A stretch of 64,000 nucleotides of DNA from an uncultured Ignavibacteria bacterium (GCA_963745945.1 CAVUZG010000004.1:1526711-1590710); one strand, 5' to 3'. Shown: positions 17,167 through 31,750, counted from the first letter of the stretch. Numbers and translations are program-made. Notes: generated by a model not told the origin, from the letters alone.

Positions 17167-17287
17167 GTCAGGTGAGAAAAACAATCCCTCCATAAAAATT
17201 AACCGTTTTAACGGTTTACAATTTTTCTATTGCTTACATAAAAGTCTTTTTATAATTTCTTATAAACAAAAATGATTCTTGATACTT

Positions 17288-18673
17288 ATGAAAAAATTAT
17301 GCCTTCCTTACTTTTTTATAATAATGCTTGCCGCAGGGAATAATCTTTTCGCGCAGAACATTTACTTCCCACCCAATACCGGGAATACATGGGAAACTGT
17401 TTCTCCTGAATCACTTGGCTGGTGCACTGAAAACATCGATACCCTGTATTCTTTTCTTGAACAGAAACACTCAAAGGCATTTATTGTCCTGAAAGACGGC
17501 AGAATTGTAATTGAACATTACTTCGGTTCATTTACACAGGACAGTATATGGTACTGGGCTTCTGCCGGAAAAACACTTACAGCTTTCCTTGTCGGCATAG
17601 CTCAGGAGGAAGGATACTTTTCCATACAGGATTCGACTGCAGAATATCTTGGTACCGGCTGGACATCCTGTCCGCCTGAAAAAGAACAGCTGATTACAAT
17701 CCGTAACCAGCTTACAATGACCAGCGGATTAAATGATGCTGTCAGCGATCCGTATTGTACTGATCCTGCATGTCTTGTTTACCTGGCTGATGCAGGAACA
17801 AGATGGGCTTACCATAATGCGCCTTATACTCTTCTTGATAAAGTTGTTGAAAACTCAACCGGGCAGAATTATAATGTGTATTTCAATAATAAAGTAAGAT
17901 CGCGTATTGGAATGAACGGATTGTGGCTGCCTTCGGGTTATAACAATGTTTATTTCAGCAGTGCAAGAAGTATGGCAAGGTACGGAATACTGATAGAGAA
18001 CCACGGAGTATGGGATGCTGATACACTGATGCGCGATACTTCATACTTTAATGCAATGGTAAATACATCGCAGGATCTGAATAAATCTTACGGCTACCTT
18101 TGGTGGCTTGCAGGAAAAGAATCTTATATGATTCCGCAGACGCAGATTGTTTTTCCCGGTACGTGGGCGCCGGATGCACCTTCAGATATGATTGCCGCAC
18201 TTGGCAAGAACGGGCAGATATTAAATGTTGTTCCGTCTCTCGGACTTGTGCTTGTGCGAATGGGCGATCCGCCTGATACTTCACTTTATATTTCAACTTA
18301 CTTTAATAACCAGATATGGCAATTGCTGAATAACATAATCTGCAATCAGACTGCAATAAAAACCGGTAGCACAACACCGGCTGATTTTACTCTTGCACAG
18401 AATTATCCGAATCCGTTCAATCCCGAAACAATTATAAAATATTCAGTCCCGAATGTCATTTCGATCCCGACTGGTCGGGAGAGAAATCTTTTTGTTACTC
18501 TAAAAATTTACGATATACTCGGAAGAGAAATAACCACACTGGTTAACGAAGAAAAACCTGCAGGAAGTTACGAAGTTAGTTTTAACGGCAGCAGACTTCC
18601 GAGCGGAGTTTACTTTGTACGAATGACTGCAGGTGAATTTAGTTCGGTAATTAAGATGAGTTTGGTGAAGTGA
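17288..18673 (+). CDS. serine hydrolase (beta-lactamase/class C fold) with T9SS CTD
   Basis: S-x-x-K motif in WASAGKTLTA and an overall AmpC/esterase-like sequence. C-terminal NYPNPFNPET...LVNEEKPAGSYEV..GVYFVRM..KMSLVK. The ATG at 17288 (MKKLCLP.. signal) is preferred over the TTG at 17279. Confidence 0.8.
   Translation: MKKLCLPYFFIIMLAAGNNLFAQNIYFPPNTGNTWETVSPESLGWCTENIDTLYSFLEQKHSKAFIVLKDGRIVIEHYFGSFTQDSIWYWASAGKTLTAFLVGIAQEEGYFSIQDSTAEYLGTGWTSCPPEKEQLITIRNQLTMTSGLNDAVSDPYCTDPACLVYLADAGTRWAYHNAPYTLLDKVVENSTGQNYNVYFNNKVRSRIGMNGLWLPSGYNNVYFSSARSMARYGILIENHGVWDADTLMRDTSYFNAMVNTSQDLNKSYGYLWWLAGKESYMIPQTQIVFPGTWAPDAPSDMIAALGKNGQILNVVPSLGLVLVRMGDPPDTSLYISTYFNNQIWQLLNNIICNQTAIKTGSTTPADFTLAQNYPNPFNPETIIKYSVPNVISIPTGRERNLFVTLKIYDILGREITTLVNEEKPAGSYEVSFNGSRLPSGVYFVRMTAGEFSSVIKMSLVK
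18454..18490. repeat. A-type hairpin repeat embedded in-frame inside the CDS
   Basis: tgtcatttcgatcccgactggtcgggagagaaatctt is the reverse complement of the intergenic unit aagatttctctcccgaYcagtcgggatcgaaatga (26671-26703, 22713-22740, 28813-28838). It is translated as NVISIPTGRERNL. Confidence 0.85.
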
Positions 18674-18709
18674 GAGAAGTTAAACTGTTAAAACAGTTAG
18701 GTTCTTCTC
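18674..18709 (+). terminator. nested hairpin immediately after the stop codon
   Basis: gagaag..aactgtt-aa-aacagtt..cttctc nested inverted repeats starting 1 nt after the TGA. Confidence 0.45.
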
Positions 18710-18765
18710 TTGCTTAGTTTATCTCACCGGGATGAATCCCGGTGTTAACCATTATTTTAAAGTCT

Positions 18766-18832
18766 CATTAACCAGCGGACGCCTTTGCCGGCTCCCCTCG
18801 CTGAGTTGTAGCGAAGCGGGCAGGCAGGTTTA
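18766..18832 (+). repeat. GC-rich palindromic interspersed repeat, D-type, copy 2
   Basis: cattaaccagcggacgcctttgccggctcccctcgctgagttgtagcgaagcgggcaggcaggttta. It has the same orientation as copy 1, a 2-nt deletion and a few substitutions. Confidence 0.85.
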
Positions 18833-18946
18833 TCTATTGGGTTATAAAATGGGGAACTTAATTATAATTAATGGCAAACAGGTGCAGGGGGATTTTTAAA
18901 AATAATTATTGAGTAAATGGGTTGAAGTGATTATGTTTGAACAATT

Positions 18947-19855
18947 ATGAAAATGTGGGTCGGCGTTACCGATAAAAAGTGGTTTGATTATCTCTCCAGT
19001 ATTTCACCAGATGAGGTAAACTTTTGGAAACCAAGCGGAAAGAATTTCGGCGCTATTGATATTGGTGCACCTTTCCTTTTTAAATTACATAGTCCAATTA
19101 ATAAAATTGTCGGTGGCGGTTACTTCATTCGTTCCGAACAATTACCACTGTCCTTAGCTTGGGATGCTTTTGGTAGTAAGAACGGCGCCCATAATTTTAT
19201 AACATTGAGGGATTCAATAAACTTTTATAGAAATTCAGGTGATGCTGATCCTACGATTGGTTGTATAATACTGAATGAACCATTCTTTTTTAAAGAAGAC
19301 CAATGGATTGATGTACCGGATTCATTTGCAAGAAATATTGTAACTGGAAAAATTTATGATACTAGTGAATACGATGGCAGAAAAATTTGGGATGCGGTTT
19401 CTGAAAGGTTAGACTTTCAAAATGTTAGTGGAATTGTTGCTGAACCATTAGCTGGTTATGGAAATGAATACTTGATTAAAAGCAGATTGGGACAGGGCGC
19501 TTTTAGAATTTTAGTGACAGATGCTTATAAAAGGAATTGTGCCATAAGTGGCGAAAAGGCGTTACCGGTTTTACAAGCTGCACACATAAAACCTTTTAGT
19601 GAACAAGGACCGAATAGTATTAACAATGGTTTATTACTCCGCTCTGATTTACATATACTTTTTGATAGAGGATATATAACAGTAACTCCTGAATATAAAA
19701 TTGAAGTGAGTAAAAAAATTAAAGAAGAGTTCAATAATGGTAAACATTATTATGCTTTTCAAGGAAAAGAATTAAAATCCTTACCACACTTAAATCAAGA
19801 TAAACCAAGTCTTGATTTTGTTCGGTGGCATAATGAAAATATTTATAAATATTAA
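18947..19855 (+). CDS. HNH nuclease fusion (HNH_2/COG3440-like predicted restriction endonuclease) with an uncharacterised N-terminal domain
   Basis: The C-terminal half has RLGQGAFR..CAISG..LQAAHIKPF..NGLLLRSDLHILFDRGYITV. The N-terminal ~170 aa (WVGVTDKKWFDYL..FWKPS..FLFKL..IVGGGYF) form a separate domain. Calling it PUA/EVE-like is based on pattern only. Confidence 0.75.
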   Translation: MKMWVGVTDKKWFDYLSSISPDEVNFWKPSGKNFGAIDIGAPFLFKLHSPINKIVGGGYFIRSEQLPLSLAWDAFGSKNGAHNFITLRDSINFYRNSGDADPTIGCIILNEPFFFKEDQWIDVPDSFARNIVTGKIYDTSEYDGRKIWDAVSERLDFQNVSGIVAEPLAGYGNEYLIKSRLGQGAFRILVTDAYKRNCAISGEKALPVLQAAHIKPFSEQGPNSINNGLLLRSDLHILFDRGYITVTPEYKIEVSKKIKEEFNNGKHYYAFQGKELKSLPHLNQDKPSLDFVRWHNENIYKY

Positions 19856-19869
19856 AGGGGAACTGATTA

Positions 19870-20717
19870 TGAAAAAAAACTTTGATCCTATTATTTATGT
19901 TGAAAATGATGGACTAAAAACTTCGGATGTTGGTATTTGGGCGATGGAAAAATATCAATTGTTGGGCGGTTATTGCGATATATTTACTAAGGGAATGAGA
20001 TCAAAATGGAAAAATTTAGTCTATCTTGATTTATTTTCGTCTGCTGGGTACTCCAGAATTAGAGAAAATGGTAAATTAGTCAAATCATCCCCCCTCATTG
20101 CTTTATCAATACCAACAAAATTTGATAAATATATTTTTTGTGAAGAAGACACTGAACTCTTTTCTGCTTTAACAAAAAGAGTTGAGAAAACTAATAAAAT
20201 ATTGAATGTTGAACTTTTCAATGAGAATTGTAATTTAGCTATTGATAAGATAAAGAATTCTATTCCAGATTATTCTGTGAACAACACTGTTTTATCATTC
20301 TGTTTTTTAGACCCGTATGACTTATCAATAAATTTCTCAACAGTTAAGAACCTTGCAAGTGGTTTAATTGATTTTTTAATTTTACAAGCATTACACATGG
20401 ACGGAAATAGGAATTTTAGGACTTATTTATCAGAGAATAATGAAAAGATCAATAATTATTTAGGAAGAGATGATTGGAGAAAATTATGGGAAAAGTCAAA
20501 ATTATTACCCAAAGATTTTGTAAGATTTTTAGCCGATCAATATGATGATAATATGAAAAAACTTGGATATTTGACAGCAAAGAGACATCTAATTAAACTG
20601 CCATTTAAAAATGTTCCTCTGTATTATTTAACTTTTTATTCAAAACACAAAACCGGCCTTGATTTTTTTGATAAAGTCGATGAATATTCTACACCTCAAC
20701 TTAATTTTGGAATATAG
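19870..20717 (+). CDS. tcmP: three-Cys-motif partner protein (TcmP-like)
   Basis: The ATG at 19870 follows an AAAGGGGA RBS, 14 nt after the upstream stop, so the track ORF start at 19812 is not needed. The sequence (..NLVYLDLFSSAGYS..YIFCEED..FCFLDPYD..) and its position directly upstream of a Gp37/Gp68 three-Cys protein match the TcmP family as I remember it. Confidence 0.7.
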
Positions 20718-20718
20718 T

Positions 20719-21453
20719 ATGGCACAAACAAGAATAGAGTGGACTGAATTAACCTGGAACCCAACTACCGGATGCAATAAAGTATCTCAGGGTTGTAAAT
20801 TCTGTTATGCAGAAGTAATGGCACGAAGACTAAAAGCTATTGGGCTAGAAAAATATCGAAATGGATTTGAATTAAACTTGCACGAAGAGGCACTTAAAAT
20901 ACCTTATTCTTGGAAACAGCCGAAAATTGTATTTGTTAATTCAATGAGTGATTTATTTCATAAAGATATACCATTAGAGTTTATCCAAAGAGTTTTTAAT
21001 GTAATGAATGATAATCCTCAACATGTATTTCAAGTTTTAACAAAACGGGCAGATATACTTTTAAAGTATCATAAGGAACTTGATTGGACGCATAATATTT
21101 GGATGGGCGTTTCTGTTGAAAATGAAAAGTCACTCAGTCGGATTAATCTTCTAAGAAGGACAAATGCCAAGGTAAAATTTCTTTCTTGTGAACCTTTAAT
21201 TGGGCCTCTTTCAAATTTAAACCTTAAAAAAATCGATTGGGTTATTGTTGGTGGTGAAAGTGGAAGAAGACCAAGACCTATGAAACCTGAATGGGTTTAT
21301 GAAATACAGAATAAGTGCCTTGAAACAAATGTTCCATTCTTCTTTAAACAATGGGGAGGAACAAATAAAAAGAAAACGGGAAGGGTTTTAAAAGGCAGAA
21401 CTTATAGTGAGATGCCAATGGTCAAGAATCTTTTAGAAAATTATAATACTTGA
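20719..21453 (+). CDS. phage Gp37/Gp68-family (DUF5131) three-Cys protein
   Basis: The ATG lies 1 nt after the tcmP stop. IEWTELTWNPTTGCNKVSQGCKFCYA has C-x6-C-x2-C. The blocks FVNSMSDLFH, FLSCEPLIGPL, DWVIVGGESG and FFFKQWGG are hallmarks of the family. Confidence 0.8.
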   Translation: MAQTRIEWTELTWNPTTGCNKVSQGCKFCYAEVMARRLKAIGLEKYRNGFELNLHEEALKIPYSWKQPKIVFVNSMSDLFHKDIPLEFIQRVFNVMNDNPQHVFQVLTKRADILLKYHKELDWTHNIWMGVSVENEKSLSRINLLRRTNAKVKFLSCEPLIGPLSNLNLKKIDWVIVGGESGRRPRPMKPEWVYEIQNKCLETNVPFFFKQWGGTNKKKTGRVLKGRTYSEMPMVKNLLENYNT

Positions 21454-21456
21454 CAA

Positions 21457-22191
21457 ATGAAATCCTTCTTCCCAAAACCAAACCTCAAAACAGATGATAT
21501 AATTTCTTATGCAGAATTAGTTGCAGAAGAAAATGCAAACATACAAAAGGGAATGAACTTTCAGATAAAACCTGAATACTCAATATTTTTAATGTCTGTC
21601 CGCAAAAATGCACCTTATGCTGATGAATGGGATGAAAAAGCAAACACACTTATTTATGAAGGACACGATGTACCGAGAAATGTTTCTCAAATTCCTAAAG
21701 AAGTAGACCAACCTTTAACAACTCCAAACGGGACACTAACTGAAAACGGAAAGTTTTTTACAGCGGCTCAATCATATAAAATGAAATTGATGGAACATCC
21801 TCATAAGATAAAAGTTTATGAAAAAATTAAAGATGGTATTTGGTGTTATAAAGGTTTCTTCAGCTTAGTAGATGCAAAAGTTGTTTTTGATGGAGTACGA
21901 AACGTTTTTAAATTTTATCTTCAACCTGTAGAGATGAAATCATTTAAGAAAGAAATTATTTTACCACATAATCGATTAATTCCTACACACGTTAAAGTAG
22001 AAGTTTGGGCAAGAGATAAAGGAAAATGTGTGAAATGCGGTTCAAAAGAAAACTTACATTTTGATCACGATCTTCCCTACTCAAAAGGCGGAACAAGTTT
22101 AACAGCAGATAATGTTAGAATATTATGTATGAAGCATAATTTGAAGAAATCTGATAAGATTTTAACAATCCCACCAATATTCTTCAGTTAA
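21457..22191 (+). CDS. HNH nuclease with SRA/YDG-like N-terminal domain (putative modification-dependent endonuclease)
   Basis: The ATG lies 3 nt after the upstream stop. C-terminal HNH motif CVKCGS..LHFDHDLPYSKGG..NVRILCMKHNLKKSDK. The N-terminal EYSIFLMS..YADEWDE..LIYEGHD..VDQPLT..NGTL mirrors the spacing of SRA domains. The SRA reading is an inference. Confidence 0.7.
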   Translation: MKSFFPKPNLKTDDIISYAELVAEENANIQKGMNFQIKPEYSIFLMSVRKNAPYADEWDEKANTLIYEGHDVPRNVSQIPKEVDQPLTTPNGTLTENGKFFTAAQSYKMKLMEHPHKIKVYEKIKDGIWCYKGFFSLVDAKVVFDGVRNVFKFYLQPVEMKSFKKEIILPHNRLIPTHVKVEVWARDKGKCVKCGSKENLHFDHDLPYSKGGTSLTADNVRILCMKHNLKKSDKILTIPPIFFS

Positions 22192-22197
22192 AGTAAA

Positions 22198-22225
22198 TCA
22201 CACTTCGACCAAGCTCAGTGTGACA
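22198..22225. repeat. hairpin (terminator and/or repeat fragment) closing the four-gene island
   Basis: tcacact-tcgaccaagctc-agtgtga, a 7-bp stem located 7 nt after the stop at 22191 and followed by caaaaagattttt. Confidence 0.5.
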
Positions 22226-22272
22226 AAAAGATTTTTACCATTCTCCCCGGTTTACATTCTGAATATTTTCGG

Positions 22273-22596
22273 CTAAGGTAAATAATCCTCCCTTACCGGA
22301 GAAAAAACTTCAATCACAACCGAGTCCTCGTGTACTTTTACACAATGCTCTACGTTTCCCGGAATATTCCAGCTGTCGCCTGCTTCAGCATCAAATTCTT
22401 TTCCATCAATTATGAAGGTCATTCTTCCTGAAACTGCATAACCCGTCTGTTCATGCGGATGGCTGTGGTTTGGAATTATATATCCCTTTGCAAGATGGAA
22501 TTCACCAAGCGATGTTTTATCACCGTAGGTAAGTGTTTTATACGTAACACCTTCTATAGCCTGCCTGTAATTAGTTAAATCTTTTTTGTAGAACAT
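22273..22596 (-). CDS. cupin-domain protein
   Basis: 107-aa ORF with cupin motifs HSHPHEQTGY and GD.W.IP..V.H. Confidence 0.8.
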   Translation of the reverse strand: MFYKKDLTNYRQAIEGVTYKTLTYGDKTSLGEFHLAKGYIIPNHSHPHEQTGYAVSGRMTFIIDGKEFDAEAGDSWNIPGNVEHCVKVHEDSVVIEVFSPVREDYLP

Positions 22597-22710
22597 TTCT
22601 TAATCCTTTTAATTAACAAATTAATATATACAGAAATGAAAATAAAAGTGCAGGCAGCTTTTCAGCCGGTTTTCTTTTAATAAAACAAATGGAATTTATA
22701 TTGTTTAGTT

Positions 22711-22875
22711 TGTTAAGATTTCTCTCCCGACCAGTCGGGAACTGCCTTACCGGCGGCCAAGTTGAAATGACAAATTTTGGAGAGATCCTGAAATTCAACA
22801 GAATGACACTCCATTAAGATTACTTCCACCAGAGGCGGACAGGCCAGTCGTCCTGCGGACTTCTTCGAAATGACT
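22711..22875. repeat. mosaic cluster of GC-rich hairpin repeats (A- and B-type units)
   Basis: ttaagatttctctcccgaccagtcgggaac..ttaccggcggccaagttgaaatgacaaa matches 28811-28873. cagaatgacactccattaagat matches 28796-28817. ccaccagaggcggacaggcca matches 26400-26420. Confidence 0.85.
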
Positions 22876-23053
22876 AAAAACCTGCTCCGTTAAAAAAATA
22901 ATATCACTTCGTTATCACTTTTCCTTTCTTTTCCTGCGTTTAATAAAAGAGAGATAAATCATTTATAAACAAAGTTGAAAACCAAAAAAGGTAACCTTTG
23001 CTTCCTGTTACCATCCTGGATTGAGCTTTTCAACACTAAAGGAGACAATATTT

Positions 23054-26000
23054 ATGAAAAAGATCGGATTATTCTGTCTGTTTACTTTTACAGTAATTCT
23101 CACGGTCAGCTTTTCCACACCCGCTCAAACTTCCGGGTACAGGGACAGGCTTAACCAGGTAAAAGATCTTGTTAATTCAAATGAATTAATTATGATATGG
23201 AGCCAGGGGGACAATTCGAGTGCTCAGAATTTGCACCAGAGAATTTATGATCTCGATTTAACGCGTCCGGGCGGTGTTGATTCAACACTTGTAAGAAAAC
23301 CGCTGGAGATTGATTCATCCATAACAGGCAATAAAACTCTTGCGGTTGCCTCAGGAAATTTTCTTGACGGGGAATATAAAAATATAGTCGCGGCGTGGGA
23401 ATCGGGAGATAATACAGTGCGGGTTTCTGTTCCTGAAATAAATTCAGGAACTTTATCCTGGACAAACACAAATGAATTAACATTAAACGGGCTTGCGACA
23501 TTTGAAAAAAATAAGATACACGTTGCAGCCGGAAACTTTTTCGGTAATCCCCAGGAGGAATTTGTGGTTGCGTACCAGGGGCAGGATACAACAATACATC
23601 TTCAGTTATGCGGGTTTAACCCGGGGAGTCTTGTTCCGCACCTGCAGGGAAGTATTAACGATGAACAATCTTATAAAGCCAATGTATTCATGAATAATTT
23701 TGATGTTGTTACAGGAGATTTTAACAGCGACGGGTATGATGATATTGCATTGCTGTTTCTTAAACCGGTCGGAGCAAACAACTGGGCTCTGTGGATTACA
23801 ATTTATACTATTGATAATAACGGAAATTTTGTAAGAAGATCTTCCAAGCAGGTATTTGAAGAACCGGCATATACTATAGATGATGTGAGTATAGATGGTA
23901 CTGCCGGATCATTTGACGGCGATGCTGAAGAGGAAATTGCCTACGGGTTCTCATTTTTCCAGAGAGATCAACCCGGAAATGACACTTACGTTTATCTTCT
24001 TGATATAAAGGATAATCTTGATTCAATAATTGTTGATGATTCAAAAAGAGTTGCTGCAAATTTAGTGGGACCGAATGAAATGCCGCTGTTTAATATTGCC
24101 GCTGGAGATCTTAACAGGGATAATCATGATGAACTGGTTCTGATGTCCGGCGGAACATTCTATGTTTATTCAGTTGATAATGATTTAAACGCTCAATACA
24201 AATCGCAGCAAAGTGTACTGACACCGGGGTTAAACTGGGACAGCGATGCTTTTCTTGCTGTAGGAGATATGGATCTTGACCGGAGTGCAGAAATAGTAAT
24301 TGTAAAAAATTACCAGGACTTTGACCCGGGAGGTTTGCAGTATTTTCAAATGAATGTATTTAGCATTGATACAACCCTTACAAACTATACACTGAAAGCA
24401 AGAAGACTGCAGGAAGAATCAATACCCAGAAACTTCAACGAAAGAAAATATGCAATAGCCCTGGGTGATTTTGATGGTGACAGGGTGAGACTGGGTGATC
24501 CTGTACATTACAGCAGAAGCGGTGTAATGCAGCCTGAAGTAGTTCTGAACACTCCCCCGGTTCATTATGATATTATTAACGGAACTACTTATGATTTAAG
24601 CGGGTGTTATCCTGATCAGAATTGCGGCTTTACTTCTTCATATGTACAATCGACAACCAGCGATACTACAATTACTACAGAAGTGCACGAAGACTGGGGA
24701 GGTGATGTTACAGTAACTGCATCCCAGTTTTTACTAAAAGAAAAAGTTAAGGCAACTTACGGTGAGAATTTCAGTAATAAACAATCTTCAGGAACATCAT
24801 ATACCATAACTACCGGCAGAATTGCTGCAGGGGATGACTGGATATACTCGAATGTTTTTGATATAGATTTTTATGAGTATCCTGTTTATAACGGGCAGGA
24901 CCCGACACCAATAGGATATTTTATGGTAACTATTCCGAAAAACCCCCGGCCTTTATGGATAGAGATGAAAGATGATGATTTACTCGGCAACCAATTCAGA
25001 CCTGATCATGAAACGGGTAATGTGCTTTCGTACAGATCAACAGATACTTATGATACTTCCCGTGTTATTGTGGATTTTCCCGAGCAGACAATTGGCGCAA
25101 CCGGGAATAGTTTTGTTTCCCTTCAGATTCAGTCGTTCCAGGAACATAACGTAGAAACAAGCTGGGATGAAGGACTGGAAGTTGGTGCAACTCTCGATCT
25201 TTCAATCAATCTGCTTGGTTTTGATGCCGGTGTTGATGTAGAGGCAAACGGACATTATAATCTTGGTGAAATTTCCACTCAAACTGTCAGGGTTCAGAAT
25301 TCACTGGAGGTAAGAGGCGACCTCGGTCATTTAAATAATCAGTTTGGAACAAGCGGAACTTATTATGTACAGCCTTATGCATACTGGACATCTTATGGGG
25401 CGCTTGATTTGGATTATAAAGTTACTCAATTGCCGGTCGGGGCAAATTCATTCTGGCAAACTCACTACGGTAATAAGACCGATCTTGCTTTTAGTCTGCC
25501 GTGGAGATACGACCCTGAAAAAGGTTATCCCCTGCCGGGTAATGATACAACATACCGCTATCGTTCAAGAGATATAAGATTATCAAAGATTCAGCCGCTT
25601 GGCGGAGATACCGTTACTATTACCGCAAAAGTACGAAACTTCGGGCTGCAGGCTGTCACAACTCCATTCAGTGTAAAATTTTATAAAGGTGATCCGGACA
25701 ATGGCGGGTCTATGATAGCCCAAACTACAGTTGACACCACAATTGCAGCACGCGGTTACAGGAATGTTTCCGTTCAATGGGCAATACCGCTAAGCCAGAA
25801 TTTAGACAGTGTAAGAATTTATGCAGTACTTGACCAGGAAAATGCGGTTACAAATGAAGTTCATGAAAATAATAATAAAGGCTGGGCTCCGGCTGTCGGT
25901 TACGGATCAATAACAGGAATTAAACCCGAACATAACACGGTTCCCGGCAAGTTTACTCTATACCAGAATTACCCGAATCCATTCAATCCCGAATCGACAA

Positions 26001-26209
26001 TTAAATTTGAACTGCCCTCTTCAGGTAAAGCGTCTCTTATAATTTATAATATACTCGGGCAGCAAGTGCAGACTCTTGTAGACGGATTTTTAAATAGGGG
26101 AACTTATGCAGTACAGTTTAACGGGGCAAAACTTGCAAGCGGTGTTTATTTCTATCGCCTGCAAACTAACGGCTTCGCTCAGACAAAGAAAATGATGCTG
26201 ATGAAATAA
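23054..26209 (+). CDS. large secreted FG-GAP-repeat / CARDB-domain protein with T9SS CTD
   Basis: The ATG at 23054 follows an AAAGGAGA RBS (the track ORF starts at TTG 23021). Repeated GDFN.DG.DDI / GDLNRDNHDELV / GDMDLDRSAEIV / GDFDGDR motifs. CARDB-like ITAKVRNFGLQAV..VKFYKGDP. C-terminal NYPNPFNPEST..GVYFYRL..KMMLMK. Confidence 0.75.
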   Translation: MKKIGLFCLFTFTVILTVSFSTPAQTSGYRDRLNQVKDLVNSNELIMIWSQGDNSSAQNLHQRIYDLDLTRPGGVDSTLVRKPLEIDSSITGNKTLAVASGNFLDGEYKNIVAAWESGDNTVRVSVPEINSGTLSWTNTNELTLNGLATFEKNKIHVAAGNFFGNPQEEFVVAYQGQDTTIHLQLCGFNPGSLVPHLQGSINDEQSYKANVFMNNFDVVTGDFNSDGYDDIALLFLKPVGANNWALWITIYTIDNNGNFVRRSSKQVFEEPAYTIDDVSIDGTAGSFDGDAEEEIAYGFSFFQRDQPGNDTYVYLLDIKDNLDSIIVDDSKRVAANLVGPNEMPLFNIAAGDLNRDNHDELVLMSGGTFYVYSVDNDLNAQYKSQQSVLTPGLNWDSDAFLAVGDMDLDRSAEIVIVKNYQDFDPGGLQYFQMNVFSIDTTLTNYTLKARRLQEESIPRNFNERKYAIALGDFDGDRVRLGDPVHYSRSGVMQPEVVLNTPPVHYDIINGTTYDLSGCYPDQNCGFTSSYVQSTTSDTTITTEVHEDWGGDVTVTASQFLLKEKVKATYGENFSNKQSSGTSYTITTGRIAAGDDWIYSNVFDIDFYEYPVYNGQDPTPIGYFMVTIPKNPRPLWIEMKDDDLLGNQFRPDHETGNVLSYRSTDTYDTSRVIVDFPEQTIGATGNSFVSLQIQSFQEHNVETSWDEGLEVGATLDLSINLLGFDAGVDVEANGHYNLGEISTQTVRVQNSLEVRGDLGHLNNQFGTSGTYYVQPYAYWTSYGALDLDYKVTQLPVGANSFWQTHYGNKTDLAFSLPWRYDPEKGYPLPGNDTTYRYRSRDIRLSKIQPLGGDTVTITAKVRNFGLQAVTTPFSVKFYKGDPDNGGSMIAQTTVDTTIAARGYRNVSVQWAIPLSQNLDSVRIYAVLDQENAVTNEVHENNNKGWAPAVGYGSITGIKPEHNTVPGKFTLYQNYPNPFNPESTIKFELPSSGKASLIIYNILGQQVQTLVDGFLNRGTYAVQFNGAKLASGVYFYRLQTNGFAQTKKMMLMK

Positions 26210-26211
26210 AG

Positions 26212-26259
26212 GATGGATGATGTCTGATGGTTGATGGATGATGTCTGATGGTTGATGGA
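26212..26259 (+). repeat. 21-nt tandem direct repeat, 2.3 copies
   Basis: gatggatgatgtctgatggtt occurs twice, perfectly, followed by gatgga. The array starts 3 nt after the stop codon at 26209. Confidence 0.9.
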
Positions 26260-26260
26260 A

Positions 26261-26278
26261 GCAAATTAAAAATTTGCA
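26261..26278 (+). terminator. AT-rich hairpin after the tandem repeat
   Basis: gcaaatt-aaaa-aatttgc perfect 7-bp stem. It is weak because it has no GC and no clear T tract. Confidence 0.3.
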
Positions 26279-26330
26279 AGACCGAAAGATTACAGGATTA
26301 CAAATTTTAAAGTGCTGAAGAGAAGGACAA

Positions 26331-26790
26331 GTCCCGCAGCCCGCTTCGCTAAAGCTCAGCGAGGAAAGGAGCGGGACAGGCTTCGCTATTAAGATTTCTC
26401 CACCAGAGGCGGACAGGCCAATTGTTCTGCTGAAGCAGAACTCACTCTGGTAAAGTCATACCTCTGTCATAGGCAGACAGGTTTGGCAGAAATGACTGTG
26501 AGAGAAAAAATTATCGGGAATAAGAATTGTCATATCGAAGGAGTCCGGAGGACGACTGAGATATCTATCCTGGGAGTTAAGATTTCTCCCTACGCCTGCC
26601 TACCGGCATAGGCAGGGTCAAAATGACTCTGTGTGAGAGATTCTGATATTCATCAGAATGACACTCCTTTAAGATTTCTCTCCCGATCAGTCGGGATCGA
26701 AATGATCCGCCAGAACGGGAAAAGCAAGCCTGCCAGAGAAAGGTAAGTCCCAAATAGCGGCAGACGGGGAGCAACAAACCCTTATTTTTC
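26331..26790. repeat. about 460-nt mosaic array of nested GC-rich palindromic repeat units (BIME/REP-like)
   Basis: Successive hairpins are gtcccgc..gcgggac (an inverted D-type unit), accagag[gttctgc-tgaa-gcagaac]ctctggt, cctgccta-ccggc-ataggcagg, attctgat-attc-atcagaat and tcccga-tcag-tcggga. They are linked by recurring taagatttctc and (t/g)(c)(g/a)aaatgac connectors. Confidence 0.85.
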
Positions 26791-27152
26791 CGGTTATCAA
26801 CTGACAAACCAAAGCAAAGTTTACCAAGTAAAGTGTAATTGTTTCTTAAAAAAGTGTGCCTGATCGCAGCCATAACGTAGTTTATTATTAAATATGAACC
26901 TTATTAATAATAAATAGTGGCATATAATTTGGTTCTGATCATCCGGCGACATATTTTTAAATTAACATTGTGGATTTACTTGTATGGTTTACTGTTCACC
27001 GGTATACGTCCACGCACCAGAAGAATTCTATCAACACACCTGTTTGATTTCCAATAAATATCTATTCCAGGATGGCTGCATAATAACAAATATTATATTA
27101 ACACATTGTAATAATGCAGGACCCATCAAAAAAAAACACATAGGAGAATATT

Positions 27153-28517
27153 ATGAGAAAGTGTTTACTGTTTGTTATGGTTCTGCTTATCAGCTTTTTA
27201 ATTAATACAACATTTGCACAAAACAGTTGGGTAGAGCAATCCAACCCGCTGGGAACCGGCGAGAATGCTATGATAGGCAATGTTCAGTTCGTAAGTCCGA
27301 CTGAAGGATGGATTTCAGGCAGCAACGGCGATCTGCTTCACACAACCAATGCCGGTGCAGATTGGCTGCTTGTAACACCTTTTCCGAACGATACTGTCTG
27401 GTCCTCTTCTGATCCGGCATTGTCTATGTCGTGGGTTAATGCCACTCACGGCTGGAAAATTAATTCTATAGGTACGGCATATGGCATTTCCTATGGTGTT
27501 GTAGTACACAGTACAACCAATGGCGGAAATACCTGGCAGAAGAAAGTACTGTCTACTACAGAAGGTGATTTCGGTTTTGAGATTCAGTTTGCAGATGTAA
27601 ACAATGGCTGGCTTCTTGTTTTTAATTTTACAACACAGACTGCAACTTTTATGAGGACAACTGACGGCGGAAACAACTGGGTTCCATTTGATGGTGCCGG
27701 AATCTTTTTCTATGTGGATGCTAACACAGGCTGGTCATTCTACGGATCAGGTGTAAATGGTGCAGACCCTCCGTATAAAATATTGCGCACTACAAACGGA
27801 GGAACAAACTGGACGGAACAATATTCAGATAATGCAGCCGGCGGCTATAACGCAATGTATTTTTCCGATCTGCAGCACGGATGGATTGTAGGAGATAGTG
27901 CTAAGGTTATGAAAACAACTGACGGAGGTACTACCTGGAATTTTATTACAAACAGCGGTATAAGTACGGATTACAGAAGTAAATCAGTCTTCTTTCTTGA
28001 TGCAAACAATGGGTGGATCTCCTCCAAAGACGGTGCCGGTTACGGAACTGTTCAGCACACTACAAATGGCGGGACAACGTGGTCAACCCAGGTAACCCCT
28101 CTCCAGAATACACAAGGCGGCAATTCAATTTTTAGTATTTATTTTGTTGATGCTCAGCATGGCTGGCTCACCGCTGATTACGGATATATTTGCGGTTATA
28201 CAGGGACAACTGCCATTGAAAGTGATAACGGGAGAGTAAATTCTTTTGCACTTTCACAGAATTATCCGAATCCTTTTAACCCGTCAACCAGGATTCAGTA
28301 TTCAATAGACAGTAAGCAATTCATAACCCTGAAGGTTTATAATGTTCTGGGAAATGAAGTTGCAACACTAGTTAATGAAGAAAAGCCCGCAGGTAATTAC
28401 TCCGCTGTATTCAATAGTAATACCTACGCAGGTCAGAGTCTTACAAGCGGTGTATATTTCTATAGGCTTACAGGCGGAATCTTTACGGAAACCAGGAAAA
28501 TGATCTTGATAAAATGA
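27153..28517 (+). CDS. BNR/Asp-box beta-propeller (Ycf48/sialidase-like) protein with T9SS CTD
   Basis: Repeated T.DGG.TW / TTNGG.NW Asp-box motifs and a signal peptide. C-terminal NYPNPFNPST..LVNEEKPAGNYS..GVYFYRL..KMILIK. Confidence 0.8.
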   Translation: MRKCLLFVMVLLISFLINTTFAQNSWVEQSNPLGTGENAMIGNVQFVSPTEGWISGSNGDLLHTTNAGADWLLVTPFPNDTVWSSSDPALSMSWVNATHGWKINSIGTAYGISYGVVVHSTTNGGNTWQKKVLSTTEGDFGFEIQFADVNNGWLLVFNFTTQTATFMRTTDGGNNWVPFDGAGIFFYVDANTGWSFYGSGVNGADPPYKILRTTNGGTNWTEQYSDNAAGGYNAMYFSDLQHGWIVGDSAKVMKTTDGGTTWNFITNSGISTDYRSKSVFFLDANNGWISSKDGAGYGTVQHTTNGGTTWSTQVTPLQNTQGGNSIFSIYFVDAQHGWLTADYGYICGYTGTTAIESDNGRVNSFALSQNYPNPFNPSTRIQYSIDSKQFITLKVYNVLGNEVATLVNEEKPAGNYSAVFNSNTYAGQSLTSGVYFYRLTGGIFTETRKMILIK

Positions 28518-28544
28518 TGAAGTAAAAATTATTTATTCAATAAA

Positions 28545-28569
28545 GCTGCCGCAGGGTAAATGCGGCAGC
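28545..28569 (+). terminator. hairpin terminator
   Basis: gctgccgca-gggtaaa-tgcggcagc, a 9-bp GC-rich stem 28 nt after the stop. The T tract is weak. Confidence 0.55.
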
Positions 28570-28673
28570 GATAATTTTCCCGTTGAATAAGATTTATCTG
28601 TCAACGTAATACCTCTCTTAATAAATCAAATCTATGAAAACTATTCACCTGCAAATTGGATTATTGTGTGCAA

Positions 28674-28935
28674 TTAAGATTTTTTCCATCAGGATTGGAA
28701 TAGCCAGTCTTCTTCCGGAAACTTCTTCTGACAAAGCCAAGCCTCTGCCATAGGCAGGGTCGAAATGACTCTGTGTGAGAGATTCTGATATTCATCAGAA
28801 TGACACTCCATTAAGATTTCTCTCCCGACCAGTCTGGAACCGAATTACCGGCAGCCAAGTCGAAATGACAAAGTGTGAGATACTGCCACTTACAGAAATG
28901 CCTTAGGCGAAAAGGTCAAAGCGACTGAGAAATCT
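28674..28935. repeat. mosaic cluster of GC-rich hairpin repeats
   Basis: It contains a 90-nt segment (28749-28838) differing at 4 positions from 26607-26696, followed by a module shared with 22712-22775. Confidence 0.85.
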
Positions 28936-29083
28936 GAAAACTTCTCTTTCCTTCCGCGGACGGCTCTCCTTCAAAATTCAATTTGCCCTTTTATCACTCC
29001 CCTTAACCTGCAGTTTAATTTTACTTACTATCCGTTTCATATATCATAAAATTGCCGGCGGAAATTCCCGGAGATAAAGGTTT

Positions 29084-31750
29084 ATGAAAATTTTACTATT
29101 AATTTGTCTTATCACTTCAGCGTCGGTATATGCAAAGTATCCCAGCCTTAAAGAAAATTCAGACACACAAATAACCGCCGTAAGATCAGTTGAAAAAATT
29201 ACTATTGATGGTAAGCTGAATGAAAAAATCTGGAAGAGACCGGGGTTTAATAAACTTATTCAGCAGGATCCCCAACAGGGTGTAATACCTTCACAGAAAT
29301 CAGAGTTCTGGACTGCATACGATGATGAAGCTTTCTACTTTGCCGCAAGATTTTATGATACAAGTCCTGATTCAATTATGGCAAGACTTGTAAGAAGAGA
29401 TTTTATATGGGGCGATCCATCGGACGGATGTGTTTTATATATTGATTCGTACCGCGATAAAAGGAACGGGTACTTTTTTTATGTATCTGCAGCAGGAGCA
29501 GTTGCGGACGGTTTAATTGAGAATGATGTAAAGCAGCCTAACGATCTCAGCTGGGATGCTGTGTGGGAAGGCGCAAGAAATATTGATGATAAAGGATGGA
29601 CAGTTGAAATGAAAATTCCCTACTCGCAGTTAAGATTTAACAAAGGCGATACACAGAAGTGGGGAATAAATGTTGAACGATTTATAAGCCGGAGATTTGA
29701 AACTGACATGGTTGTTTATACACCGAGGAATGAAAGCGGGTTCACTTCAAGATTTCCCGATCTCGTTGGTATTGAAAATATTACACCTCCCGCACAGATT
29801 GAATTTTTACCTTACATTGTGGGCAAGGCAAAGTATATCAGCTCCGATCCGAATGATCCGTTCAATTCCGGTCACGATTATTCTCCCGGTGCCGGTCTCG
29901 ATTTAAGAGCAGGACTCGGAAGCAGTCTTACACTGAATGCAACTATCAATCCTGATTTCGGACAGGTTGAAGTAGATCCCGCAGTAGTAAACTTATCGGA
30001 TGTAGAATCAACTTTTGATGAGAAGCGCCCTTTCTTTACTGAAGGAGTGAGCATTTACAGGTTCGGCCGCGGTGGAACAAATAACAATGTATCATTTAAC
30101 TGGCCGATTACCACCATCTTCTACAGCAGAAGAATCGGGAGAAATCCCCAGGGTAATTTACCGGGTTATGATTTTGCGGATATTCCCGACGGAACACATA
30201 TTCTCGGTGCGGCTAAAATTTCAGGACAGGCTTATGACAACTGGAAAGTGGGAACAATACACGCAGTTACCCGGCGCGAGTTTGCAGATATTTCATCCGG
30301 CGGAGTACGCTCAAGTATTGAAGTGGAACCGTTAACCTACTATGGTGTGCTGAGACTTCAGAGAGATTTTAATTCAGGAAAACAGGGATTCGGATTGCTC
30401 TCAACTTTTACAAACCGTTTTTTTAACAGTGCGGGATTAAACAATTCCATTAGTAAAAATGCTTTTGTTTTAGGTGGTGACGGCTGGACATTTTTAGATG
30501 AAGAAAACACTTATGTATTAACAGGCTGGGCGGCACTTTCGAATGTTACAGGATCAAGGGAAAGAATTACTGCTCTTCAGCAGAGCCCGGTTCATTATTT
30601 CCAGAGACCGGATGCATCATATATTTCTGTTGATAGTGCTGCAACTTCATTAACAGGTTACAGCGGAAGACTGATGCTGAATAAAAACCGGGGAAGATTA
30701 ACTTTTAATACTGCAGTTGGTTTTATAAGCCCGGGATTTGAAGTAAACGATCTCGGTTTCGGTTCATACAGTGATTATATAAATGCACATTTTTTTACAA
30801 GCTACAGGTGGAACGAGCCGACCGGTTTTTATCAGAATTTCGGAATAAATGCCGCTGCATATACAAGCTATGATTTCGGCGGCGATAATACTGCTCTCGG
30901 CTACTGGCTGGGCAGCTATCTTACTATGCCCGATTATACCGGGGGAGAGGTTACGGTAAATTATAATCCTTCAACACTTAATTCCCGGAGAACACGCGGC
31001 GGTCCGCTTACTGTTAACCCGGAAAGCACTTCTTTCAGTGCTGATTTTTATACAGACAGCCGTGTATGGTGGGTTTTAAATGCAGGAGGAAATGTATCTT
31101 TAAGCAAAGATGGAGATTCACATTCAATTTATTCTAATATCGAATTTAAAGTGCTTCCTACTCTTACTCTGTCACTGGGACCTGAATTTACAAGAGACAT
31201 TTCGGAAACTCAGTGGGTCGGTAACTTTAATGATTCCAGAGCGGCAGACACCTATAATAAAAGATACGTATTTGCACACCTTGATCAGACTATATTTGCA
31301 GCGAATATACGCGCCGACTGGATTCTTAGTCCGACCCTGAGTTTCCAGGTTTACCTGCAGCCGCTTATTGCATCGGGAAGATATAACAGTTTCAGGTACC
31401 TTTTAAAACCGAGCAGTTATAACTTCACTACATATGGTGAGGATGGATCAACCATAGTCCGGAACAATTCTGAAAATGGAGATATAGTTTCTTACGAACT
31501 TGATCCAGACGGACAGGGACCTGCAGAGGCACAGGTAATTAGTAATCCGGATTTTAATTATATATCACTTCGTGGTAACGCGGTACTGCGCTGGGAATAT
31601 CTGCCGGGCTCAACACTTTATCTTGTATGGACCCAGAGCAGAGAAGATATTAATCCTGACGGCACATTCCGGTTTGGAAGATCATTCAATAACCTGTTTA
31701 GCGTACGTCCAGATAATATTTTCATGCTTAAAGTGAGTTACTGGCTGTAG
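29084..31750 (+). CDS. CBM9-like / DUF5916 outer-membrane-associated protein
   Basis: 888-aa ORF with a signal peptide. The N-terminal ITIDGKLNEKIWKRP.. carbohydrate-binding family 9-like start and the long beta-rich body ending ..MLKVSYWL are typical of DUF5916 proteins as I recall them. Confidence 0.65.
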   Translation: MKILLLICLITSASVYAKYPSLKENSDTQITAVRSVEKITIDGKLNEKIWKRPGFNKLIQQDPQQGVIPSQKSEFWTAYDDEAFYFAARFYDTSPDSIMARLVRRDFIWGDPSDGCVLYIDSYRDKRNGYFFYVSAAGAVADGLIENDVKQPNDLSWDAVWEGARNIDDKGWTVEMKIPYSQLRFNKGDTQKWGINVERFISRRFETDMVVYTPRNESGFTSRFPDLVGIENITPPAQIEFLPYIVGKAKYISSDPNDPFNSGHDYSPGAGLDLRAGLGSSLTLNATINPDFGQVEVDPAVVNLSDVESTFDEKRPFFTEGVSIYRFGRGGTNNNVSFNWPITTIFYSRRIGRNPQGNLPGYDFADIPDGTHILGAAKISGQAYDNWKVGTIHAVTRREFADISSGGVRSSIEVEPLTYYGVLRLQRDFNSGKQGFGLLSTFTNRFFNSAGLNNSISKNAFVLGGDGWTFLDEENTYVLTGWAALSNVTGSRERITALQQSPVHYFQRPDASYISVDSAATSLTGYSGRLMLNKNRGRLTFNTAVGFISPGFEVNDLGFGSYSDYINAHFFTSYRWNEPTGFYQNFGINAAAYTSYDFGGDNTALGYWLGSYLTMPDYTGGEVTVNYNPSTLNSRRTRGGPLTVNPESTSFSADFYTDSRVWWVLNAGGNVSLSKDGDSHSIYSNIEFKVLPTLTLSLGPEFTRDISETQWVGNFNDSRAADTYNKRYVFAHLDQTIFAANIRADWILSPTLSFQVYLQPLIASGRYNSFRYLLKPSSYNFTTYGEDGSTIVRNNSENGDIVSYELDPDGQGPAEAQVISNPDFNYISLRGNAVLRWEYLPGSTLYLVWTQSREDINPDGTFRFGRSFNNLFSVRPDNIFMLKVSYWL

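What the first reader, a model, noticed from the sequence alone, without database searches (positions are those of the whole stretch)
18454..18490. Intergenic hairpin repeat unit inserted in-frame inside a T9SS sorting domain
The 37-nt string tgtcatttcgatcccgactggtcgggagagaaatctt inside the hydrolase gene is the reverse complement of the intergenic repeat unit seen at 22713-22740, 26671-26703 and 28813-28838. It is translated as NVISIPTGRERNL. The six other T9SS tails in this window have about 6 residues between the ..[ILF].[YF].. strand and the V.LK[VI]YD strand. This one has about 17, so roughly 11 codons (about 33 nt) are extra. The reading frame and the downstream CTD (LVNEEKPAG..GVYFVRM..) are intact. 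This is a clean example of a REP/MITE-like element colonising a coding loop without destroying the frame.
Basis: seen in the sequence. Interest (0 to 1): 0.6.

Follow-up and report, generated by a model that had tools for sequence, protein, structure and literature searches.

The report
Hairpin repeat translated inside secretion-tag loop
A 36-base copy of a small hairpin-forming DNA repeat that normally lies between genes sits in frame in a surface loop of the removable secretion tag of an intact hydrolase gene; close relatives lack it, and the same loop holds such repeats in many other secretion tags of this bacterial order, which extends the known habit of palindromic repeats settling in tolerant parts of proteins.

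Summary
**Observation.** It is confirmed. Bases 18455-18490 (12 codons, VISIPTGRERNL) are a copy, in reverse orientation, of a bracketed hairpin repeat (AAGATTTCTC-stem/loop-TCGAAATGAC). The pattern scan gave 91 hits in this Ignavibacteriales genome.

**Host gene.** It is an intact serine hydrolase (PF00144) with a T9SS type A sorting domain. It is under purifying selection (dN/dS 0.21).

**Gain, not loss.** All 120 homologues lack the segment. These include a same-genus orthologue that is 90% identical. Metagenome contigs of the no-insert allele also lack it. The segment is therefore a recent gain.

**Position in the protein.** AlphaFold puts it at the tip of the hairpin between strands 2 and 3 of the seven-strand tag. 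That is far from the C-terminal export signal.

- The event was not clean. Six bases of the old loop are gone, and substitutions cluster in the 18-24 nt on either side. This points to a recombination patch rather than cut-and-paste.
- It is not a one-off. Five other tags in this genome, five in the sister genome and over 100 protein clusters in public data carry hairpin units at the same junction. Units of this family are always read in the same phase.
- Neither the MITE nor the RAYT-REP definition is met.

**Classification.** It is an RPE-like passenger in a recurrent permissive slot. The phenomenon is known in kind. The host site and the repeat family appear undescribed in the papers I searched.

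The parts
17288..18673 (+). Serine hydrolase gene (beta-lactamase fold, 'CubicO group peptidase' type) with an N-terminal signal-like segment and a C-terminal T9SS type A sorting domain. The open frame runs from TTG 17279; the likely start is ATG 17288.
   Evidence: ORF list and translation. PF00144 98.6 bits and PF18962 36 bits. S95-x-x-K98 and Y178 are invariant in an 88-sequence alignment. dN/dS 0.21 against the G005 orthologue.
18392..18670 (+). T9SS type A C-terminal sorting domain (residues 372-464). The predicted strands are 370-373, 383-390, 404-411, 417-426, 429-436, 443-451 and 454-462.
   Evidence: PF18962 and TIGR04183 both score above their cut-offs. The AlphaFold2 model has mean pLDDT 85.4 and seven strands. 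A PorU sortase gene is present in the genome (966 bits against a cut-off of 420).
18455..18490 (-). The repeat unit, 36 nt. In unit orientation (minus strand) it reads AAGATTTCTC-TCCCGAC-CA-GTCGGGA-TCGAAATGAC. On the coding strand it is read as 12 codons, VISIPTGRERNL (residues 393-404).
   Evidence: Pattern and repeat searches. It folds as a two-tier hairpin of -12.4 to -13.9 kcal/mol. It is absent from orthologues. It is identical over 39 nt to the copy in another tail at G000:C7:136176-136214.
18436..18454 (+). Upstream flank of the patch. It reads KYSVPN, where the orthologues read NYQLTINN. The flank is locally diverged and 6 nt shorter.
   Evidence: DNA alignment of G000 against G005. 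Substitutions and deletions are also seen against the metagenome contigs of the no-insert allele.
18491..18508 (+). Downstream flank of the patch. It reads FVTLKI, where the orthologue reads FVSLKV. There are 4 substitutions in 18 nt, 2 of them synonymous. The next ~100 nt are identical.
22715..22771 (+). Intergenic composite copy of the family. It has the same 5' bracket and first stem, a second hairpin inside, and then the 3' bracket.
   Evidence: It is conserved at the syntenic place in G005, with small changes inside the hairpin.
26671..26707 (+). Intergenic copy closest to the coding copy in the window (3 mismatches in 37).
28813..28869 (+). Intergenic composite copy. It is a paralogue of 22715-22771 (88% identity over 67 nt).

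Best explanation
**What it is.** Bases 18455-18490 are a copy of a REP-like family of small imperfect palindromes. The family design is 5'-AG-AT-NNC ... stem-loop-stem ... GNN-AT-GAC-3'. The outer bracket is conserved and the interior varies but stays paired.

**Where it sits.** The copy lies in frame as 12 extra codons. It is at the tip of the beta-hairpin between strands 2 and 3 of the cleavable T9SS type A sorting domain of an otherwise intact secreted serine hydrolase.

**When it arrived (shown).** It was gained in the lineage of this genome after it split from its closest sequenced relative.

**How it arrived (inferred).** It probably arrived as part of a short recombination tract of about 70-80 nt. 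The donor was either another unit-bearing sorting domain (paralogous gene conversion or template switch) or a diverged allele of the same gene. A clean transposition is less likely.

**Why it persists (inferred).** The loop is far from the C-terminal export signal in strands 6-7. The whole domain is also removed by the PorU sortase after export. The mature enzyme is therefore unaffected, and the unit is a tolerated passenger.

**Wider pattern (shown).** The same junction (..IPx | unit | xVTLKVYD) acts as a recurrent slot for hairpin repeats in sorting domains of Ignavibacteriales. Units of this family are always read there in one phase (GTC ATT = V I). Their stems are kept by compensatory changes even when this changes the encoded residues. 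The constraint, or the copying source, therefore acts on the nucleic acid and not on the peptide.
For: **Family**
- The pattern scan gave 91 hits in G000, a few of them chance matches with a mismatch. They are mostly intergenic and clustered on contig C2.
- The exact bracket occurs in 21 of 41 related genomes with widely different interiors. The reversed-pattern control gave 0 hits.
- Covariation is seen in both stems, for example TTTC/GAAA against TATC/GATA and CCCGAC/GTCGGG against CCGGC/GCCGG.

**Gain**
- The G005 orthologue and all 120 homologues lack the segment. 77 of the 100 homologues with a scorable tail have the canonical 23-residue spacing.
- Salt-marsh contigs hold the allele that is 30 nt shorter.

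**Patch**
- 11 of 42 flank bases differ against 3 of 170 elsewhere in the domain (p = 1.3e-6). There is a 6-nt loss and there are synonymous changes next to the unit.
- The gene is mosaic elsewhere too.
- The unit plus the preceding AAT is identical over 39 nt to G000:C7:136176-136214.

**Slot**
- Six tails in G000, five in G005 and two in G017 carry a unit at the same junction.
- 111 of the 117 best public CTD matches have inserts there: 15 VIS..RN, 24 VIA..KQS, and others.
- Other phases of the same units occur in a methylase gene. The fixed phase in tails is therefore not forced by stop codons.

**Hairpin kept in coding copies.** L034 has CCCGAT..ATCGGG (peptide IPIYRE) where the window has CCCGAC..GTCGGG (IPTGRE).

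**Tolerance**
- The insert spans residues 393-404, between strands 383-390 and 404-411. The 10-residue block 391-400 has mean pLDDT 70.
- PorU is present.
- The export signal lies in the last two strands, and the CTD is cleaved off (PMC4804311).
- dN/dS is 0.21.
Against: - No donor with matching flanks was found. The flanks resemble the common consensus of many tails, with or without a unit, about as well as they resemble unit-bearing ones. The recombination step is therefore inferred from the local clustering of changes alone.
- No reads from the source sample were available. Neither the allele nor its expression or secretion could be verified independently.
- The public-database enrichment is biased. 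The query itself carries an insert. Within genomes only 0-6 of about 150 tails are occupied.
- The enzyme or process that spreads the units is unknown.
Confidence: 0.8

Rival explanations
1. Direct, site-specific insertion ('landing pad'). A hairpin-recognising enzyme or a hairpin-stalled copy-choice process writes bracketed units into one nucleotide position of sorting-domain genes. The unit in the hydrolase would then be a de novo integration, not a recombination import.
For: - All copies of this family in tails have the same junction and the same reading phase.
- The insertion follows AAT in 4 of 6 G000 tails and in the histidine kinases.
- The empty site in the orthologue reads AAT|TTC.
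- Stems are kept by compensatory change in coding copies.
- Different interiors sit at the same slot in related tails of G000 and G005.
Against: - The flanks of the hydrolase insert are changed and 6 nt are lost. A precise integration does not predict this.
- Unrelated hairpin families without this bracket (LPAGRQG, SPLLGGDGRGG and others) occupy the same junction. This points to structural tolerance or descent rather than one enzyme's target.
- Intergenic copies show no common flanking target.
- No candidate enzyme is linked. The four Y1/RAYT-type genes are flanked by other palindromes, and only one of six GIY-YIG genes is flanked by units.
- Only one gain is seen between G000 and G005, at dS 0.28.
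Confidence: 0.2
2. The unit has a function of its own in the gene. It could be an intragenic RNA hairpin followed by a U-run that ends or pauses transcription or translation and yields tag-less enzyme. Alternatively, the loop peptide could modulate recognition of the tag.
For: - The hairpin (-13.9 kcal/mol) is followed by CUUUUUGUU in this gene and in 3 other G000 tails.
- Stems are conserved at the nucleic-acid level in coding copies.
Against: - The terminator scan does not call it.
- The residue after the unit varies (F, N, K, R, L, Q), so the U-run is not conserved.
- Two G000 tails have TGTTAC directly after the unit.
- Most tails (134 of 156) do without any insert.
- The peptide varies freely.
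Confidence: 0.07
3. The segment is ancestral coding sequence of sorting domains, and the intergenic units are its decayed derivatives.
For: Units occur in several tails, and some of these are conserved between G000 and G005.
Against: - Orthologues lack it.
- About 80 intergenic copies occur in arrays. They are not enriched downstream of tail-bearing genes (5 of 91 against 4.5 expected).
- The bracket occurs in genomes that have no occupied tails.
- Copies lie in unrelated genes, a kinase and a methylase, in other phases.
Confidence: 0.02
4. Assembly artefact. A repeat-induced chimera in a metagenome-assembled genome placed the unit in the gene.
For: The genome is a 9-contig draft. No read set from its own sample could be laid, and the exact protein is not on record elsewhere.
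Against: - Both sides of the unit continue the same gene at 97-100% identity to the orthologue. The frame is kept and the length is an exact multiple of three.
- The same arrangement is seen in independent assemblies for other tails.
Confidence: 0.02

Closest known systems
Rickettsia palindromic elements (RPE; Ogata et al. 2000, as summarised in PMC10969869 and PMC3733652)
   Same: Both are palindromic repeat elements found between genes and also in frame inside functional protein-coding genes. Both are translated as extra surface segments compatible with the fold. No transposase is known for either.
   Different: - RPEs are about 100-150 bp and encode a conserved peptide. They are scattered over unrelated genes of an obligate intracellular alphaproteobacterium.
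- The units here are 27-37 nt with a conserved bracket and a variable interior. They occur in free-living Ignavibacteriales.
- The units here recur at one fixed junction and phase of one domain family.
Intragenic REPs of the GTAG- and CGTC-tagged superfamilies (Di Nocera, De Gregorio and Rocco 2013, PMC3733652)
   Same: Both are 20-40-nt imperfect palindromes. Both are mostly extragenic, are often paired in opposite orientation, and have some copies entirely inside ORFs. That paper notes REPs at about the same site in recB of two Xanthomonas species.
   Different: - This unit has no GTAG or CGTC tag. Its invariant ends are AGAT and ATGAC.
- No REP-flanked RAYT was found for it.
- The host site is a secretion tag occupied repeatedly in paralogues and across genomes.
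REPIN/RAYT systems (REP doublets mobilised by a Y1 HUH transposase)
   Same: Hairpin units occur singly and as inverted pairs. Examples are the pair inside the kinases and the alternating arrays on C2. Copy number runs to tens per genome.
   Different: The four Y1_Tnp genes of this genome are flanked by other palindromes, not by this family.
MITEs with in-frame coding insertions (e.g. ERIC, Anabaena MITEs; review PMC10969869)
   Same: Both are small non-autonomous repeats that can end up translated inside genes.
   Different: This unit has no terminal inverted repeats of 15-30 bp and no target-site duplication. Its length is far below 70-300 bp.

Membership tests
T9SS type A C-terminal sorting domain (Por_Secre_tail) | Profile match above the curated cut-off, at the extreme C-terminus | tested here: met
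   PF18962 scores 36.0 bits (cut-off 27) over residues 376-457. TIGR04183 scores 33 bits (cut-off 23) over residues 376-460 of 464.
T9SS type A C-terminal sorting domain (Por_Secre_tail) | Ig-like beta-sandwich of seven antiparallel strands (PMC4804311) | tested here: met
   The AlphaFold2 model shows seven strands between residues 370 and 462. pLDDT is about 87-95 outside the insert. This is a prediction, not a solved structure.
T9SS type A C-terminal sorting domain (Por_Secre_tail) | Secretion machinery with the PorU sortase that removes the domain | tested here: met
   NF033707 scores 966 bits (cut-off 420) at G000:C4:438584-441865. Other T9SS components were not searched.
T9SS type A C-terminal sorting domain (Por_Secre_tail) | Export and cleavage of this particular protein with the enlarged loop | not testable with these tools
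   This needs a secretome analysis or a reporter assay.
REP / REPIN mobilised by RAYT | Short (20-40 nt) imperfect palindrome in many, mostly extragenic, copies | tested here: met
   Units are 26-37 nt. The pattern scan gave 91 hits, of which about 10 lie in real genes.
REP / REPIN mobilised by RAYT | Conserved GTAG or CGTC tetranucleotide at one end | tested here: not met
   The invariant ends are AGAT and ATGAC. CGTC occurs only in some sister units (..TCGTCGATATGAC).
REP / REPIN mobilised by RAYT | A RAYT (Y1_Tnp) gene flanked by the same REPs | tested here: not met
   The genome has four PF01797 genes. All are flanked by other palindromes, and no bracket motif lies within 500 nt of any of them.
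Rickettsia palindromic elements (RPE) | Palindromic repeat inserted in frame in a functional ORF, at a surface position | tested here: met
Rickettsia palindromic elements (RPE) | Element of about 100-150 bp encoding a family-specific conserved peptide; sequence related to RPE-1 to RPE-10 | tested here: not met
   The unit is 36 nt and its interior and peptide vary. Sequence relatedness to RPEs was not tested.
MITE | Terminal inverted repeats of 15-30 bp and a target-site duplication | tested here: not met
   The whole unit is one hairpin with a 5-bp outer stem. The junctions AAT|unit|TTT show no duplication.

The most novel reading that the evidence does not exclude
The strand 2-3 loop of one large subfamily of T9SS sorting domains is a dedicated exchange slot.
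- Bracketed hairpin cassettes (GTCAT...ATCT and sister brackets) would be written and rewritten there in a fixed phase by a hairpin-directed process.
- That process could be a single-strand DNA nuclease or transposase still to be identified, or template switching at the bracket.
- Selection would act on the DNA or RNA hairpin rather than on the peptide.
- The hydrolase gene would then be a rare caught-in-the-act conversion of a naive loop into an occupied slot.
Probability: 0.15. Interest if true: 0.8.

Novelty: new variant of a known kind. Interest (0 to 1): 0.5.

Why it matters
**What this case adds.** In-frame palindromic repeats are known from Rickettsia and from scattered intragenic REPs. 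This case adds three things.
- It gives a dated presence/absence pair. The same gene is 90% identical in a sister species, with and without the unit.
- It shows that one loop of the most abundant secreted-protein tag of an entire bacterial order is a recurrent harbour for several hairpin families. Units of this bracket family are always read there in one phase.
- It shows that the stems are kept by compensatory changes inside coding sequence.

**Why the site is informative.** The tag is cleaved off after export. It is therefore a natural safe harbour. It can be used to study how selfish hairpins enter and move between genes and how much loop enlargement T9SS recognition tolerates. It may also explain why annotation pipelines meet odd peptides (VIS..RNL, VIASEAKQSQ and the like) in metagenomic proteins.

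**Practical use.** The loop is a candidate permissive site for engineering T9SS tags.

Tried and rejected
- **RAYT link.** The four Y1_Tnp genes are flanked by other palindromes. Rejected.
- **GIY-YIG link.** One small GIY-YIG gene (C2:120576) is flanked by units. The five others are not. Left open and weak.
- **Rfam.** No family matched at the gathering threshold over the window. With E-value up to 1 over 18300-29100 there was only a chance miRNA hit.
- **Intrinsic terminator.** The scan does not call the unit, and the U-run after it is not conserved.
- **Units placed near tail-bearing genes.** Intergenic units are not enriched downstream of sorting-domain stop codons (5 of 91 against 4.5 expected at 1 kb).
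- **Donor of the patch.**
  - BLAST of the patch finds only the unit itself. The best match is 39 nt at C7:136176-136214.
  - Flank ranking does not single out unit-bearing tails.
- **Read support.** No run holds the window's own allele. The salt-marsh runs hold the no-insert relative. The exact protein is not on record.
- **Unit-bearing tails as a clade.**
  - They are more alike than average (68% against 49% identity).
  - Tails without a unit are equally close.
  - The hydrolase tail's nearest relative is its unit-less orthologue.
- **Literature.** String searches for the bracket and for T9SS plus REP found nothing relevant.

Full report
**1. Observation.**
- The string TGTCATTTCGATCCCGACTGGTCGGGAGAGAAATCTT is at 18454-18490.
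- Its reverse complement matches 26671-26707 with three mismatches, where shuffles give none.
- It is perfectly complementary to 22715-22740 over 26 nt and 86% complementary to 28813-28848.
- It lies in ORF 17279-18673 (likely start ATG 17288) and reads NVISIPTGRERNL.
- The window holds six other T9SS tails. From NYPNPF to the V.LK[VI]YD strand, five have 23 residues and one has 26. This tail has 33.
- Genome-wide, 134 of 156 such tails have 23.
The net excess is 10 codons: a 12-codon unit with two loop codons lost.

**2. The gene.**
- The protein has a beta-lactamase-fold serine hydrolase domain (PF00144, 98.6 bits) and a Por_Secre_tail domain (PF18962 36 bits; TIGR04183 33 bits).
- Public homologues are named serine hydrolase or CubicO-group peptidase, from Ignavibacteriales.
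- The Ser-x-x-Lys and Tyr motifs are invariant in an 88-sequence alignment.
- Against the same-genus orthologue, dN/dS is 0.21.
- The genome encodes a PorU-type sortase.
- The gene looks functional.

**3. The repeat family.**
- A pattern scan finds 91 hits in the 3.5-Mb genome, a few of them chance matches with a mismatch. Each starts with AGATTTCTC and ends with CGAAATGAC (one mismatch allowed per end), and their interiors span 7 to about 90 nt.
- Most are intergenic. Many lie in two dense arrays on contig C2 around a polysaccharide gene cluster.
- Sister brackets occur there as well, namely AGATATC..GATATGAC and AGATTCT..AGAATGAC.
- The common design is AG-AT-NNC, a stem-loop, then GNN-AT-GAC.
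- An alignment of 23 distinct units shows compensatory changes in both the outer and the inner stem.
- The unit folds at -12 to -14 kcal/mol on either strand.
- The exact bracket is present in 21 of 41 related genomes, across families of the order, with very different interiors. The control pattern gave no hit.
- No Rfam family matches.

**4. It is a gain.**
- The closest orthologue (G005, same genus, 90% aa identity) reads ..ETIINYQLTINNFVSLKVYD.. where the window reads ..ETIIKYSVPN-VISIPTGRERNL-FVTLKIYD...
- None of 120 homologues has the segment. 77 of the 100 with a scorable tail have the canonical spacing.
- Contigs from three salt-marsh metagenomes cover 18000-18750 at about 93% identity with 30 bases fewer.
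- The two closest database homologues (90% and 83% identity) share the G005 loop. Parsimony therefore places the gain in this genome's lineage.

**5. It was not a clean insertion.**
- Outside the patch, the domain differs from G005 at 3 of about 170 bases.
- In the 24 nt before and 18 nt after the unit it differs at 11 of 42. Six bases are missing, and two of the four downstream changes are synonymous (Fisher p = 1.3e-6).
- The gene is mosaic elsewhere too. Two other patches are as diverged as this one.
- I read this as arrival by a short recombination tract. The source was either another unit-bearing tail or a diverged allele that already had the unit.
- The unit plus the preceding AAT is identical over 39 nt to the copy in the tail at G000:C7:136176-136214.
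- No donor with matching flanks exists in the assembly. The flanks resemble the general consensus of many tails. This step remains an inference.

**6. The same slot elsewhere.**
- Five further tails in this genome carry a unit of the family at the same codon junction, in the same orientation and phase (..IP[NDS] | VIS..RN[LP] | [F]VTLKVYD). Three of these units are 27 nt and two are 36 nt.
- G005 has five, some orthologous and identical. The 39 other relatives have none with this bracket.
- G017 has two with the sister bracket GTCATTGCGA..GCAATCT, read VIASEAKQSQ.
- A search of the public protein collection with the tail alone returned 117 new proteins. 111 of them have an enlarged loop at this junction:
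  - 15 VIS..RN;
  - 24 VIA..KQS;
  - 10 VTLRQAQSD;
  - 8 LPAGRQG;
  - 7 VETHRDASL-like;
  - 6 QARND (the same bracket in the other orientation);
  - the rest are other types.
- That list is biased by the query's own insert. Within genomes only a few per cent of tails are occupied.
- In a methylase gene of G019 the same units are read in other phases. The single phase in tails is therefore not imposed by stop codons. It points to descent and recombination among tails, or to a precise integration point.
- Unit-bearing tails are similar to each other but are not a clean clade.

**7. Hairpin kept inside coding sequence.**
- Tails from other assemblies carry GTCATTTCGATCCCGATTTATCGGGAGAGAAATCT (peptide IPIYRE) and ..CCCGACGAGTCGGG.. 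(peptide IPTSRE) at the same junction.
- The first keeps the stem by a double change that alters two residues non-conservatively.
- The copies thus track the nucleic-acid hairpin, not the peptide.

**8. Why it is tolerated.**
- The AlphaFold2 model (mean pLDDT 85.4) gives seven strands for the tail.
- The insert (residues 393-404) lies between strands 383-390 and 404-411. Confidence there is lower (mean pLDDT about 70 for residues 391-400), and neighbouring strands are intact.
- In the solved RgpB tail the export signal lies in the last two strands, and the domain is cleaved off by PorU (PMC4804311).
- An enlarged early hairpin in a disposable domain is a plausible safe harbour. This is inference.

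**9. What spreads the units.**
- Nothing could be linked to their spread.
- The four Y1/RAYT-type genes are flanked by other palindromes.
- One of six GIY-YIG genes is flanked by units.
- Intergenic units are not enriched behind tail-bearing genes.
- The syntenic intergenic cluster at 22715 is conserved in G005 with small changes inside hairpins. Turnover is therefore slow at this depth (dS 0.28).

**10. Comparison and novelty.**
- In-frame palindromic elements are known, namely RPEs and intragenic REPs (PMC10969869, PMC3733652).
- This unit fails the REP tag and RAYT tests and the MITE tests. It is far shorter than an RPE.
- The repeated occupation of one loop of T9SS tags was not found in the papers searched.
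- Earlier notes of this scan describe the same habit in at least 23 other genomes. These are leads, not independent evidence, but my database search agrees with them.
- New here are the dated gain with altered flanks, the fixed phase contrasted with other phases in other genes, and this bracket family.

**11. Limits.**
- No reads of the source sample, no expression data and no secretion data were available.
- The structure is a prediction.
- The database counts are biased by the query.
- The recombination donor is unidentified.

Noticed in passing
G000 contig C4:486649-486723 and C4:491180-491254 (outside the window, minus strand): Two paralogous hybrid histidine kinases carry an in-frame pair of units, giving 26 extra residues (VISKESSTEKSLLYGNKISPFGRND) inside the HATPase_c domain. 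The pair is a 33-nt unit in antisense, a 16-nt spacer, and a 26-nt unit in sense. Pfam aligns only profile positions 35-110 after the insert.
   Followed up: partly
L027:1479-1553 (G019:C2 about 379.2 kb): A type I HsdM-like N6-DNA methylase ORF (520 aa) holds a unit pair in frame. It is read in phases different from those in T9SS tails (LSFRPKGEIL / KDSSPDKSGFGMT).
   Followed up: partly
L023 (G000:C7:136179 region) against L014 (G005:C6:29523): The G000 gene with the identical 36-nt unit ends prematurely 26 residues after it (..EQKPAGKI*). The G005 orthologue has a full tail. The cause could be a frameshift, a pseudogene or an assembly error.
   Followed up: no
L014, L016, L018, L022 (G005 tails): Later loops of the same tails also carry hairpin-derived peptides (TAVPIGRQAGSYS, TVVPNGRQAGSFS, NSYFDKSAGRGQNLSSG, NLPAGKAGLSSG). 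At least two further loops of the domain therefore accept repeats.
   Followed up: no
G000 contig C4, minus strand, tail starting at reverse-complement offset 1177077 (outside the window): The loop reads ISDQARNDKLRVTLK (DNA ATGATTTCGGACCAAGCACGGAATGACAAA). It looks like a degenerate unit of the same family in the opposite orientation at the same slot.
   Followed up: partly
G000 contig C2:119900-130600 and 152600-169100 (outside the window): Dense arrays of bracketed hairpins from three sister brackets, partly as roughly 258-nt tandem composites, flank a polysaccharide-biosynthesis cluster. They are interspersed with small ORFs: one GIY-YIG (Pfam-supported), plus ORFs that look DUF559-like, four-helix-bundle-like and GxxExxY-like by eye only.
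   Followed up: partly
window 18431-18459, minus strand: The unit's end ATGACA, a 17-nt spacer and TATAAT in the old coding sequence make an 11-of-12 sigma-70-like promoter match that points antisense into the hydrolase gene. It may be chance, and the promoter type of this phylum was not established here.
   Followed up: no
window 17639-18673 against L003 (G005 orthologue): Divergence between the two hydrolase genes is mosaic. Two further patches (alignment positions about 90-200 and 390-430 of the 3' 1074 nt) reach 15-38% mismatch between stretches of near identity. This suggests frequent recombination with diverged alleles. The G005 gene is also split into two frames (residues 1-129 and 120-464).
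   Followed up: partly
window 44185-44424 (+): Another tail in the window has the loop ETIINYQLTMNNYVTIKVYD. This is nearly the loop of the unit-less hydrolase orthologues, and it shows what the ancestral loop looked like.
   Followed up: no
window 18937-22111 against G005:C2 (L024/L025): The block just downstream of the hydrolase gene (the HNH/defence cassette noted by another reader) is not shared with G005. G005 has about 3.9 kb of other sequence there, and an extra 3.7 kb at the place corresponding to window 26592-26697.
   Followed up: no
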